64,000 bases of DNA from the human T2T-CHM13v2.0 reference genome, Homo sapiens. The notes under the pieces were generated by a model that was given only the letters and a program-made list of their open reading frames with translations, searched no databases and had not been told where the DNA came from. The position numbers were made by a program, and so were the translations under genes. The stretch is taken from NCBI RefSeq assembly GCF_009914755.1, contig NC_060946.1, one strand, 5' to 3'. Of this stretch, positions 9,751-14,635 are shown in pieces. How positions within the stretch are numbered: position 1 is the first letter of the stretch; each line of letters starts with the position of its first letter.

Positions 9751-10764
9751 ATGGGGAAAAAAAAGAGCAGAAGAACTGGAAACTCTAAAAATTAGAGTGC
9801 CTCTCCTCCTTCAAAGGAACGCAGCTCCTCACCAGTAACGGAACAAAGCTGGATGGAGAATGACTTTGACGAGTTGAGAGAAGAAGTTTTCACACGATTG
9901 GTAATAACAAACTTCTCTGAACTAAAGGAGGATGTTCGAAGAAAAGAAGCTAAAAACCTTGAGAAAAGATTGGATGAATGGCTAACTAGAATAAACAGTG
10001 TAGAGAAGACCTTAAATGACCTGATGGAGCTGAAAACCATGGCATGAGAACTACGTGACACATACACAAGCTTCAGCAGCCGACTCAATCAAGTGGAAGA
10101 AAGGGTATCAGTGATGGAAGAGCGAATGAATGAAATGAAGCAAGAAGAGAAGTTCAGAGAAAAAAAGTAAAAAGCAAGGACAACAGCCTCCAAGAAATAT
10201 GGGACTATGAGAAAAGACCAAATCTACGTCTGATTGGTGTACCTGAAAGTGACTGAGAGAATGCAAACAAGTTGGAAACCACTCTGCAGGATATTTTCCA
10301 GGAGAACTTCCCCAACCTAGCAAGGCAGGCCAACATTCAAATTCAGGAAATACACAGAACGCCACAAAGATACGCCTTGACAAGAGCAACTCCAAGACAC
10401 ATATTGTCAGATTTACCAAAGTTGAAACGAAGGAAAAAATGCTAAGGGCAGCCAGAGAGAAAGGTCGGGTTATCCACAAAGGAAGCCCATCAGACTAACA
10501 GCTGATCTCAGGACAGAAACTCTACAAGCCAGAAAAGAGTGGGGGCCAATATTCAATATTCTTAAAAGAATTTTCAACCCAGAATTTCATATCCAGCCAA
10601 ACTAAGCTTCATTAAGTGAAGGAGAAATAAAATCCTTTACAGACAAGCGAATGCTGAGAGATTTTGTCACCAGCAGGCCTGCCTTACAAGAGCTCCTGAA
10701 GGAAGCACTAAACATGGAAAGGAACAACCGGTACCAACCACTGCAAAAATATGCCAAATTGTAA
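9751..10764 (+). pseudogene. L1 ORF1p, disrupted (copy A)
   Basis: ATG GGG AAA start; MENDFDELREE...LKTMA fragment; premature TGA at 10045 and several frameshifts. Confidence 0.93.
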
Positions 10765-10827
10765 AGACCATTGATGCTAGGAAGAAACTGCATCAACTAA
10801 CGGGCAAAATAACCAGCTAACATCATA

Positions 10828-13800
10828 ATGACAGGATCAAATTCACACATAACAATATTAACCTTAAATGTAAATGGGCTAAATGCTCCAATTAAAAGAC
10901 ACAGACTGGCAAATTGATTAAACAGTCAAGACCCATCAGTGTGCTGTATTCAGGAGACCCATCTCACGTGCAGACACACACATAAGCTCAAAATAAAGGG
11001 ATGGAGGAAGATCTGCCAAGCAAATGGAAAACAAAAAAAGGCAGGGGTTGCAAACCTAGTCTCGGATAAAACAGACTTTAAACCAACAAAGATTGAAAGA
11101 CACAAGGAAGGTCATTACATAATGTTAAAGGGATCAATTCAACAAGAAGAGCTAACTATCCTAAATATATATGCACCCAATAAAGGAGCATCCAGATTCA
11201 TAAATCAAGTCCTTAGAGACCTACCAAGAGACTTAGACTCCCACGCAAGAATAATGAGAGACTTTAAGACCCCACTGTCAACATTAGACACATCAACGAG
11301 ACAGAAAGTTAAAAAGGATTTCCACGACTTGAACTCAACTCTGGACCAAGCAGACCTAATAGACATCTACAGAACTCTCCACCCCAAATCAACAGAATAT
11401 ACATTCTTCTCAGCACCACATCACACTTATTCCAAAATTGACCACATAGTTGGAAATAAAGCACTCCTCAGCAAATGTAAAGAACAGAAATTATAACAAA
11501 CTCTCAGACCACAGTGCAATCAAATTAGAACTCAGGATTAAGAAACTCACTCAAAACCACTCAACTATATGGAAACTGAACAACGTACTCCTCAATGACT
11601 ACTGGGTACATAACAAAATGAAGACAGAAATAAAGATGTTCTTTGAAACCAATGAGAACAAAGACACTACATGCCAGAATCTCTGGGACACATTTAAAGC
11701 AGTGCGTAGAGGGAAATTTATAGCACTAAATGCCCACAAGAGAAAGCAGGAAAGTTCTAAAATTGACACCTGAACATCACAATTAAAAGAACTGGAGAAG
11801 CAAGAGCAAACACATTCAAAAGCTAACAGAAGGCAAGAAATAACTAAGATCAGAGCAGAACTGAAGGAAATAGAGACATAAAAAACCCTTCAAAAAATCA
11901 AGGAATCCAGGAGCTGGTTTTTTGAAAAGATCAACAAAATTGAGAGACCGCTAGCAAGACTAATAAAGAAGAAAAGAGAGAAGAGTCAAATAGATGCAAT
12001 AAAAAAATGATAAAGGGGATATCACCACCGATCCCACAGAAATACAAACTACCATCAGAGAATACCAGAAACACCTCTACGGAAATAAACTAGAAAATCT
12101 AGAAGAAATGGATAAATTCCTCAACAAATACACCCACCCAAGACTAAAACAAGATAAGAAGTTGAATCCCTGAATAGACCAATAACAGGCTCTGAAATTG
12201 AGGCAATAATTAATAGCCTACCAATCAAAAAATCTCCAGGACCAGATGGATTCACAGCCTAATTCTACCAGAGGTACAAAGAGGAGTTGGTACCATGCCT
12301 TCTGAAACTATTCCAATCAATAGGAAAAGAGGGAATCCTCCCTAACTCATTTTATGAGGCCAGCATCATCCTGATACCAAAGCCTGGGAGAGATACAACA
12401 AAGAGAATTTTAGACCAATATCCCTGGTGAACAACGATGCAAAAATCCTCAATAAAATACTGGCAAACCGAATCCAGCAGCACATCAAAAAGCTTATCCA
12501 CCACGATCAAGCTGGCTTCATCCCTGGGATGCAAGGCTGGTTCAACATACACAAATCAATAAACGTAAGCCATCATATAAACAGAACCAAAGACAAAAAC
12601 CACATGATTATCTCAATAGATGCAGAAAAGGCCTTTGACAAAATTCAACAGCCCTTCATGCTAAAAAAAACTTTCAATAAACTAGGTATTCATGGGACAT
12701 ATCTCAAAATCATAAGAGCTATTTATGACAAACCCACAGCCAATATCATACTGAATGGACAAAAACTGGAAGCATTCCCTTTGAAAACTGGCGCAAGACA
12801 GGGACGCCCTCTCTCACCATTCCTATTCAACATAGTGTTGGAAGTTCTGGCTAGGGCAGTCAGGGAAGAGAAAGAAATAAAGGGCATTCGATTAGGAAAA
12901 GAGGAAGTCAAATCGTCCCTGTTTGCAGATGACATGATTGTATATTTAGAAAACCCCATCGTCTCAGCCCAAGATCTCCTCAAGCTGATAAGCAACTTTA
13001 ACAAAGTCTCAGGATACAAAATCGATGTGCAAAAATCACAAGCCTTCCTATACACCCATAACAGACAAACAGAGAGCCAAATCATGAGTGAACTCCCATT
13101 CACAATTGCTTCAAAGAGAATAAAATACCTAGGAATCCAACTTACAAGGGATGTGAAGGACCTCTTCAAGGAGAACTACAAACCACTGCTCAACAAAATA
13201 AAAGAGGTCACAAACAAATGGAAGAACATTCCATGCTCCGGGATAGGAAGAATCAATATCATGAAAATGGCCATACTGCTCAAGGTAATTTATAGATTCA
13301 GTGCCATCTCCATTAAGCTACCAATGACTTTCTTCACAGAACTGGAAAAAACTACTTTAAAGTTCATATGGAACCAAAAAAGAGCCCGTATTGCCAAGTC
13401 AATCCTAAGCCAAAAGAACAAAGCTGGAGGCATCACGCTACCTGACTTCAAACTATACTACAAGGCTACAGTAACCAAAACAGCATGGTACTGGTACCAA
13501 AACAGAGATATAGACCAATGGAACAGAACAGAGCCCTCAGAAATAATGCCGCATATCTACAACCATCTGATCTTTGACAAACCTGACAAAAACAAGAATT
13601 GGGGAAAGGATTCCCTATTTAATAAATGGTGCTGGGAAAACTGGCTAGCCATATGTAGAAAGCTGAAACTGGATCCCTTCCTTATACCTTATACAAAAAT
13701 TAATTCAAGATGGGATAAAAGACTTAAATGTTAGACCTAAAACCATAAAAACCCTAGAAGAAAACCTAGGCAATACCATTCAGGACATAGGCATGGCCAA

Positions 13801-14635
13801 GGACTTCATGTCTAAAACACCAAAAGTAATGGCAACAAAAGCCAAAATTGACAAATGGGATCTAATTAAACTAAAGAGCTTCTGCACAGCAAGAGAAACT
13901 ACCATCAGAGTGAACAGGCACCCTACAGAATGGGAGAAAATTTTTGCAATCTACTCATCTGACAAAGGGCTAATATCCAGAATCTACAATGAACTCCAAC
14001 AAATTTACAAGAAAAAAACAAACAACCCCATCAAAAAGTGAGTGAAGGATATAAACAGACACTTCTCAAAAGAAGACATTTATGCAGCCAAAAAACACAT
14101 GAAAAAATGCTCATCATCATTGGCCATCAGAGAAATGCAAATCAAAACCACACCAGTTAGTATGGCGATCATTAAAAAGTCAGGAAACAACAGGTGCTGG
14201 AGAGGATGTGGAGAAATAGGAACACTTTTACACTATTGGTGGGACTGTAAACTAGTTCAACCATTGTGGAAGTCAGTGTGGTGATTCCTCAGGGATCTAG
14301 AACTAGAAATACCATTTGACCCAACCATTCCATTACTTGGTATATACCCAAAGGATTATAAATCATGCTGCTATAAAAACACATGCACACATATGTTTAT
14401 TGTGGCACTATTCACAATAGCAAAGACTTGGAACCAACCCAAATGTCCAACAATGATAGACTGGATTAAGAAAATGTGGCACATATACACCATGGAATAC
14501 TATGCAGCCATAAAAAATAATGAATTCATGTCCTTTGTAGGGACATGGATGAAGCTGGAAACCATCACTCTCAGCAAACTATCGCAAGGACAAAAAACCA
14601 AACACCGCATGTTCTCACTCATAGGTGGGAATTGA
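10828..14635 (+). pseudogene. L1 ORF2p (endonuclease / reverse transcriptase / C-domain), disrupted (copy A)
   Basis: EN fragments ([22 protein letters not shown]); RT fragment 12427-13734 with QGRPLSP and [10 protein letters not shown]-terminal MFSLIGGN; multiple stops and frameshifts. Confidence 0.95.

What the first reader, a model, noticed from the sequence alone, without database searches (positions are those of the whole stretch)
9900..13830. Stepwise identity profile suggests several conversion events of different ages, possibly in both directions
A vs B by eye, tract by tract: ~9900-10570 has about 20 differences (~3%) despite shared private lesions; ~10900-11320 (EN domain) is much more divergent and looks unconverted; ~11320-11879 has about 10 differences; 11880-13341 has none; 13342-13599 has about 9; 13600-13826 has none. 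After ~13830, subfamily-type differences resume, along with a private 18-bp deletion in A at ~14150. From remembered consensus states, A carries older-type ORF1 sequence (gtaataacaaacttctc), suggesting B-to-A transfer. Both carry younger-type ataatgccgcatatc and gccaagtcaatcc, suggesting A-to-B transfer. At 10681/28520 the states look swapped (A gccttacaag, B gccctaaaag). This would be a layered fossil record of a long-lived recombination hotspot. Repeated NAHR duplication followed by collapse would leave the same mosaic.
Basis: partly seen in the sequence, partly recalled or inferred. Interest (0 to 1): 0.75.

Follow-up and report, generated by a model that had tools for sequence, protein, structure and literature searches.

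The report
Neighbouring LINE-1s overwritten by gene conversion
Two old LINE-1 retrotransposon copies 17.8 kb apart in a TTC28 intron share an identical 1.46-kb stretch and dozens of private mutations, likely because one was copied onto the other several times by gene conversion, a known process that would leave the pair prone to small, probably harmless intronic deletions.

Summary
A (8743-14862) and B (26604-32716) are separately inserted full-length L1s of a younger and an older subfamily, 93.9% identical overall but 100% identical over 1462 bp. Painting against 20+20 genomic relatives shows A carries B-type states at 33 of 36 diagnostic sites in 9914-13243 and both share private mutations absent from relatives: B-to-A transfer is firm. 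Uniform divergence is rejected. Three layers hold: recent (11880-13341), middle (9900-10570, 11250-11879) and very old or unconverted (10571-11249). Finer layering fails post-hoc correction (103 of 1000). Reverse transfer into B (13342-13826) is likely but not proven, because natural elements carry the same state pattern. The 10684/10687 'swap' is polymorphic (3 of 20 B relatives). No hotspot evidence was found. A third L1 21.5 kb upstream of A may have taken part (weak). Verdict: a clean new example of interlocus gene conversion between repeats, a known kind; no paper on this pair turned up in my searches.

The parts
8743..14862 (+). L1 copy A, full length, younger subfamily (L1PA5-like; label inferred, not from a repeat library); main recipient
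   Evidence: ORF1 start about 9751, ORF2 start about 10828 by landmarks in relatives; RVT_1 E=2.9e-40
8724..8741 (+). 5' target-site duplication of A (18 bp; 3' copy 14864-14881)
26604..32716 (+). L1 copy B, full length, older subfamily (L1PA6/7-like; label inferred); main donor
   Evidence: RVT_1 E=1.6e-40
26589..26598 (+). 5' target-site duplication of B (10 bp; 3' copy 32712-32721)
8743..9884 (+). Unconverted 5' part of A (5'UTR and start of ORF1); 14% from B
   Evidence: 37 of 37 diagnostic sites A-type in A; 159/1133 differences to 9899
9900..10570 (+). Middle-age B-to-A tract, left arm (B 27740-28410), ORF1; includes shared 9-bp, 4-bp and 1-bp deletions; left edge about 9885-9899
   Evidence: 22 shared, 10 A-only, 5 B-only; B-type 9-bp segment at 9899-9907 absent from 20 of 20 A relatives
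10571..11249 (+). Oldest or unconverted stretch (B 28411-29086), end of ORF1 to EN domain; peak 11040-11249; A-only excess unexplained
   Evidence: 1 shared, 23 A-only, 14 B-only; A is B-type at 10684, 10687, 10775, 10956 and A-type at 11040
11250..11879 (+). Middle-age B-to-A tract, right arm (B 29087-29716)
   Evidence: 17 shared, 6 A-only, 2 B-only
11880..13341 (+). Recent tract, 1462 bp identical in A and B; spans the RT domain (about 12400-13143); B-type
   Evidence: next best of 40 scored genome candidates 93%
29717..31178 (+). Partner of the recent identical tract in B
13342..13599 (+). Older homogenised stretch, A-type states in both copies (B 31179-31436)
   Evidence: 0 shared, 3 A-only, 4 B-only; A-type at 13399, 13548, 13554
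13600..13826 (+). 227-bp identical tract (B 31437-31663), A-type; likely A-to-B
   Evidence: shared private change at 13714-13717; 13797 shared with A's sub-lineage
13921..14862 (+). Unconverted 3' part of A; private 18-bp deletion at about 14148
   Evidence: 14 of 14 diagnostic sites A-type in A, 12 of 14 B-type in B; 8.7%
14882..26588 (.). Single-copy spacer between the two L1s (TTC28 intron, no annotated exon); would be lost or doubled by a crossover
   Evidence: self-BLAST shows no long repeat besides A/B; annotation given with the finding

Best explanation
The two L1 copies share long B-type tracts and private mutations, likely because breaks in one copy were repaired on the nearby other copy without crossover (interlocus gene conversion) at least twice and probably three times, mostly from B into A. 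Shown: separate insertions with intact target-site duplications; B-type sequence in A from about 9890 to 13243; three classes of post-transfer divergence. Inferred order: (1) an early exchange near the time A inserted left B-type states in 10571-11014; (2) a middle episode, about a quarter of B's age (0.16-0.38; roughly 4-12 Myr if B is 27-31 Myr old), overwrote 9900-10570 and 11250-11879 or beyond; (3) a recent one, under 0.04 of B's age (about 1 Myr, so human-specific and possibly still polymorphic), made 11880-13341 identical. A smaller transfer from A (or an A-like neighbour) into B likely covers 13342-13826. Inferred driver: short distance, same orientation, and feedback, each event creating longer identity that seeds the next; the 14%-divergent 5'UTR was spared.
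For: 33 of 36 diagnostic sites B-type in A within 9914-13243 versus 51 of 51 A-type in the flanks; none of 20 A relatives has more than 3 B-type states in 6 consecutive sites. Shared private alleles: 92 in 9900-13341 versus 4 in 1892 flank columns. Shared fraction of B's private alleles 1 of 15, 39 of 46 and 52 of 52 in the three layers (Fisher P=7e-8 old vs middle, boundaries post hoc; 1 of 1000 permutations with free boundaries). Both TSDs intact, so no net crossover and no segmental duplication. No closer third copy among 40 scored candidates for the identical tract. Distance, identity and perfect-match dependence of conversion are described in PMC3924818 (passages).
Against: One genome cannot separate conversion from duplication followed by collapse. 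Tract lengths of 1.5-3.4 kb between copies about 6-7% apart are long, and overlapping events can mimic long tracts (PMC3924818 passage). The two arms of the middle layer and finer steps are not separable (103 of 1000). In 10571-11249 A has more private changes than B (23 vs 14; flank ratio 46 vs 79, P=0.008) and B is too clean in 10571-11014 (5 vs 16 expected, P=0.001, one of about ten segments looked at); neither follows from simple B-to-A copying. Ages rest on small counts, a local rate about 1.5 times the family mean and an inferred subfamily age. No GC bias signal (P=0.21-0.24).
Confidence: 0.7

Rival explanations
1. Unequal crossover between A and B made a 17.8-kb tandem duplication with a chimeric middle L1, and later crossovers collapsed it, leaving B sequence in A left of a junction near 13243-13399 and A sequence in B right of it.
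For: B-type tract in A and A-type tract in B abut at one junction (13243/13399), which is the pattern collapse on either side would give; kb-long tracts are natural; the duplicated interval has no exon.
Against: Needs two crossovers per layer and survival of each intermediate; the gap at 11040-11249 and isolated A-type states at 10116 and 12122 inside the B-type tract fit patchy repair better; LINE pairs below about 96% identity were not enriched at CNV breakpoints (PMC4344489 passages).
Confidence: 0.15
2. All transfer was one way (B to A); B's A-type states at 13399-13811 and 10684/10687 are native to an intermediate lineage between the two subfamilies.
For: L053 carries A-type states at 13399, 13548, 13554, 13811 and then mostly B-type states, as B does; L048/L057 is another natural intermediate; B's 10684/10687 haplotype is in 3 of 20 B relatives.
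Against: 0 of 19 B relatives chosen by 5'UTR carry even 3 of those 4 states; L053 was 1 of 14 fragments picked for likeness to this very stretch; allele 13797 is in A, B, C and the fully A-type L042 but 0 of 52 others; B's private load in 13342-13826 is 8 against 17.8 expected (P=0.008).
Confidence: 0.2
3. The 1462-bp identical tract is an assembly or polishing artefact in CHM13 in which reads of one copy overwrote the other.
For: Zero differences; I could not see an independent assembly or reads.
Against: The tract is much shorter than long reads (established knowledge) and is flanked by copy-specific bases; older tracts with shared private lesions plus later divergence cannot arise this way.
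Confidence: 0.04
4. A was born chimeric: during its insertion the reverse transcriptase switched to a transcript of B, and nothing happened afterwards.
For: The oldest stretch (10571-11249) dates to 0.74 of B's age (0.52-1.02), close to the A/B family age ratio of about 0.76.
Against: At A's insertion B would have had about a quarter of its private changes, yet 39 of 46 and 52 of 52 are shared.
Confidence: 0.02

Closest known systems
Alu-Alu non-allelic gene conversion in primates (PMC8230782, passages read; PMC6598467, passages)
   Same: Subfamily-diagnostic states replaced at a fixed locus; old-to-young direction occurs (12 cases there); some loci converted more than once (3 cases); neighbours favoured.
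   Different: Here the elements are 6-kb L1s, donor and recipient are both identified, tracts reach 1.5 kb or more, and the distance (17.8 kb) exceeds the roughly 10-kb range given for Alus.
Interlocus gene conversion in human segmental duplications (PMC10172114, abstract and passages)
   Same: Donor/acceptor transfer leaving near-identical tracts; favoured by high identity.
   Different: A and B are independent retrotransposon insertions with their own TSDs, about 6-7% apart at the start, not a segmental duplication.
LINE-LINE NAHR substrates (PMC4344489, passages) and TE-mediated rearrangements (PMC9675761, supplement rows)
   Same: Directly oriented LINE pair able to misalign; that paper suggests short high-identity sub-fragments may drive events.
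   Different: No crossover product here; overall identity 93.9% is below their 95-96% cut, the perfect tract was made by conversion.
Non-allelic gene conversion among human LTRs (PMC4921805, search listing and start of abstract only)
   Same: Ectopic conversion between interspersed repeats in humans.
   Different: Different repeat class; not read further.

Membership tests
Full-length primate LINE-1 (L1PA) | About 6 kb, 5'UTR, ORF2 with EN and RT, poly(A) tail, target-site duplication | tested here: met
   6.1 kb each; RVT_1 in both; EN hit in A weak (E=4.9e-4, below curated cut-off); A-rich tails and TSDs
L1PA5 (A) and L1PA6/7 (B) subfamilies | Match to curated subfamily models | not testable with these tools
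   No repeat library held; labels inferred from relative private divergence of relatives (about 2.0% vs 2.6%) and recalled ages
Interlocus (non-allelic) gene conversion | Tract of identity far above the paralogue background | tested here: met
   0/1462; 0 of 380 A-family by B-family pairs as close; shuffles max 601 bp
Interlocus (non-allelic) gene conversion | Recipient carries donor-specific alleles | tested here: met
   33 of 36 diagnostic sites; 92 shared private substitutions
Interlocus (non-allelic) gene conversion | Flanks not exchanged, copy number kept | tested here: met
   TSD pairs intact, flanks keep own subfamily states
Interlocus (non-allelic) gene conversion | Non-reciprocal single-step transfer rather than duplication-collapse | not testable with these tools
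   Needs orthologues or population haplotypes
Bidirectional conversion | Each copy carries alleles that can only come from the other | tested here: inconclusive
   B-to-A firm; A-to-B rests on 4 sites, allele 13797 and low private load, against a natural look-alike
Segmental duplication | Homology extends into flanking unique DNA | tested here: not met
   Alignment ends at the L1 ends; different TSDs
PRDM9-directed recombination hotspot | Binding motif near the tract | tested here: not met
   Recalled 13-mer consensus of the common allele: 5 matches in the window, none in 8743-32716; says nothing about other or extinct alleles
PRDM9-directed recombination hotspot | Mapped double-strand breaks or raised recombination rate | not testable with these tools
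   No break or recombination maps held

The most novel reading that the evidence does not exclude
Three same-strand full-length L1s (C, A, B) within 52 kb of a TTC28 intron form a self-reinforcing exchange network that has run for about 20 million years in both directions, is still converting in living humans, and has built from copies 6-7% apart a perfect 1.46-kb repeat that now drives recurrent 17.8-kb deletions and duplications: a natural, datable record of identity feedback between unrelated insertions.
Probability: 0.15. Interest if true: 0.55.

Novelty: new member of a known kind. Interest (0 to 1): 0.3.

Why it matters
It is a well-resolved case in which donor, recipient, direction and order of events can be read for L1-L1 conversion across subfamilies. 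It shows that overall-identity filters (over 95-96%) can miss rearrangement substrates made by conversion, and that divergence-based L1 dating and short-read mapping fail in such tracts. The practical effect is probably small: a crossover would remove or double 17.8 kb of intron with no annotated exon, and both copies are long dead (frameshifts and shared deletions).

Tried and rejected
Third, closer donor for the identical tract or for A's EN patch: none among 40 scored candidates each, but these searches score 40 of about 5,000-11,000 candidates and missed B itself, so this is weak. EN patch from an older active lineage: A's changes are 16 non-synonymous to 4 synonymous, so they arose in dead DNA; no other L1 piece in the window matches it. 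Reciprocal swap of the whole 10571-11249 stretch: private loads fit, but only 2 of 5 diagnostic sites do. Special mutation spectrum in A-only changes: 7 C>G/G>C vs 3.6 expected, not pursued. GC-biased conversion: not significant. Sub-lineage for B among its 20 relatives: none stands out. C-A closeness in 13342-14400 (2.8%, best bit score of those compared) as proof of conversion: undercut when L042 showed 13797 and 14094 are sub-lineage alleles. In one search two fragments (L052, L053) were mis-oriented; one search replaces those rows. L057 aligns only from A 11534 on; its upstream columns were ignored. L017 was left out of family means as a likely duplicate of L007; L023 is truncated, so B-family counts are of 19 beyond 11300. 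The age paper by Khan and colleagues was not held.
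Full report
What is there. A self-comparison of the window gives one long repeat: 8743-14858 against 26605-32708, same strand, 93.9% over 6138 columns. Both are full-length LINE-1s with reverse-transcriptase domains, antisense to TTC28 and inside one intron by the annotation supplied. 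Each has its own target-site duplication (A 18 bp, B 10 bp) and the homology stops at the element ends, so they are two separate insertions, not a segmental duplication, and no net crossover has joined their flanks.

Observation. The zero tracts are exact. Uniform placement of the 85 differences never gave a run above 601 bp in 20,000 shuffles. Change-point fitting with a strict penalty gives unconverted 5' end (14.2%), 9920-11879 (3.8%), the identical tract, 13342-13920 (2.2%) and the 3' end (8.7%); a milder penalty adds a peak at 11040-11249 (11.9%; 0 of 200 permutations); only the mildest splits off the 227-bp run, whose chance is about 0.02.

Painting. I took the 20 best of 40 listed genomic relatives of A's 5' end and the 20 best of 40 for B's, aligned them and found 92 sites that separate the two families. 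A is A-type at 37 of 37 sites up to 9805 and 14 of 14 from 13946, but B-type at 33 of 36 sites in 9914-13243, and carries a 9-bp B-type segment at 9899-9907 that 20 of 20 A relatives lack. No A relative has more than 3 B-type states in 6 consecutive sites. At conserved columns A and B share 92 private substitutions in 9900-13341 against 4 in 1892 flank columns. B-to-A transfer is therefore firm. Among 40 scored genome candidates the next best match to the identical tract is 93%.

Layers. Shared / A-only / B-only counts are 22/10/5 (9900-10570), 1/23/14 (10571-11249), 17/6/2 (11250-11879), 52/0/0 (11880-13341), 0/3/4 (13342-13599), 4/0/0 (13600-13826). With free boundaries the low-sharing middle is significant (1 of 1000 permutations), but once 11015-11249 is removed the remaining steps are not (103 of 1000), and 3.2% versus 2.1% is not distinguishable (P=0.18). 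So three classes hold. On B's own clock they date to 0.74 (0.52-1.02), 0.25 (0.16-0.38) and under 0.04 of B's age. If B is 27-31 Myr old (range taken from passages of PMC4083085 on L1PA6/7; B's label is my inference), that is about 14-32, 4-12 and at most about 1 Myr. The recent tract covers the RT domain and would be human-specific. The EN stretch is not simply unconverted: A is B-type at 10684, 10687, 10775 and 10956, A-type at 11040. Two oddities remain unexplained: A has more private changes than B there (23 vs 14 against a flank ratio of 46 vs 79, P=0.008; 20 in 306 bp, the highest of 43 elements), and B is too clean in 10571-11014 (5 vs 16 expected).

Direction into B. B is A-type at 13399, 13548, 13554 and 13811; 0 of 19 B relatives carry three of these. 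B's private load in 13342-13826 is 8 against 17.8 expected (P=0.008), and allele 13797, found in A, C and the wholly A-type L042 but in 0 of 52 other elements, is in B. Against this, among 14 fragments picked for likeness to this stretch, L053 has the same run of A-type then B-type states and L048/L057 is another natural intermediate; the upstream part of L053 was not examined, so whether B belongs to such a lineage is open. I put transfer into B at about 75%.

A third copy. One search revealed another full-length same-strand L1, C (G000:C22:28625108-28631255, 21.5 kb upstream of A, outside the window), of A's family. It shares five alleles with A or with A and B that none of 40 relatives has (11064, 11673, 12394, 12569, 13921) after dropping 13797 (sub-lineage) and 14743 (gap context); controls average 1.3, maximum 4 (P about 0.01-0.04). 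It is B-type at 13048, 13209 and 13243 where its sub-lineage relative is not, but lacks B's private alleles there. C was found by a similarity search on part of this region. I rate its participation at about 35%.

Mechanism. Most likely, breaks in one copy were repaired on the other without crossover, repeatedly, each event lengthening the perfect match that seeds the next. Dependence on distance, identity and a perfect stretch of about 200 bp is described in PMC3924818 (passages), which also warns that overlapping events distort apparent tract lengths. The repair pathway itself is inferred. Duplication and collapse would leave the same mosaic, and the abutting of the B-type and A-type tracts at 13243/13399 suits it; one genome cannot exclude it. 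A chimera made at insertion is excluded for the two younger layers. The recalled PRDM9 consensus has 5 matches in the window and none in A, B or the spacer; GC bias is not significant. 'Hotspot' is not shown.

Known context. Conversion between interspersed repeats is established: Alus, including old-to-young and repeated events (PMC8230782, passages; PMC6598467, passages), LTRs (PMC4921805, listing only), segmental duplications (PMC10172114, abstract and passages). LINE pairs act as NAHR substrates mainly above 96% identity, possibly through short better-matched sub-fragments (PMC4344489, passages). I found nothing on this pair in searches; none of 10 chr22 rows in the supplement of PMC9675761 lies between 25.1 and 36.7 Mb; supplement searches in PMC4344489, PMC6345438 and PMC10172114 found nothing, but several files could not be read, and subscription papers and SV databases are not covered. 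The TTC28 mention in PMC3927684 concerns 1000-mers present ten or more times, so not this two-copy tract (passages).

Verdict. Real, explained by a known process, unusually legible. New member of a known kind; interest 0.3.

Noticed in passing
L041:109-6256 (G000:C22:28625108-28631255; about window -18892 to -12745): Third full-length same-strand L1 (C), A's family, 21.5 kb upstream of A; shares five otherwise unseen alleles with A or A and B and has a short B-type run at A-equivalent 13048-13243. No clear TSD found.
   Followed up: partly
window 11015-11320: A has 20 private substitutions in 306 bp, the most among 43 elements compared (others 2-17), random in codon position; unexplained.
   Followed up: partly
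window 28411-28853 (B, equivalent to A 10571-11014): B has 5 private changes where 16 are expected, around the 10684/10687 haplotype; may mark an exchange with a younger copy.
   Followed up: partly
window 8743-32716: A, B and C carry more private substitutions than their family means (B 3.8% vs about 2.6%), suggesting a locally raised substitution rate.
   Followed up: no
L037 (G000:C14:65141100-65148100): A B-family element with 5 A-type states in 6 consecutive diagnostic sites (A-equivalent 12280-12873); possibly another converted L1.
   Followed up: no
L007 and L017 (G000:C23:118558800-118565500 and 118421050-118427750): One pair among the A relatives is almost identical (0-0.4%); by shared alleles it is likely these two, in opposite orientation 137 kb apart, probably arms of an inverted duplication.
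   Followed up: no
L048/L057, L053, L050, L051, L055: Natural elements with mixed states between the two subfamilies, consistent with intermediate L1 lineages.
   Followed up: partly
window 26275-27474: The RefSeq enhancer overlaps B's 5'UTR, the part that conversion has spared.
   Followed up: no
window 39466, 42089, 44089, 50277, 63644: Five matches to the recalled PRDM9 consensus (0.67 expected by shuffling), all downstream of B; some lie in masked repeats.
   Followed up: no
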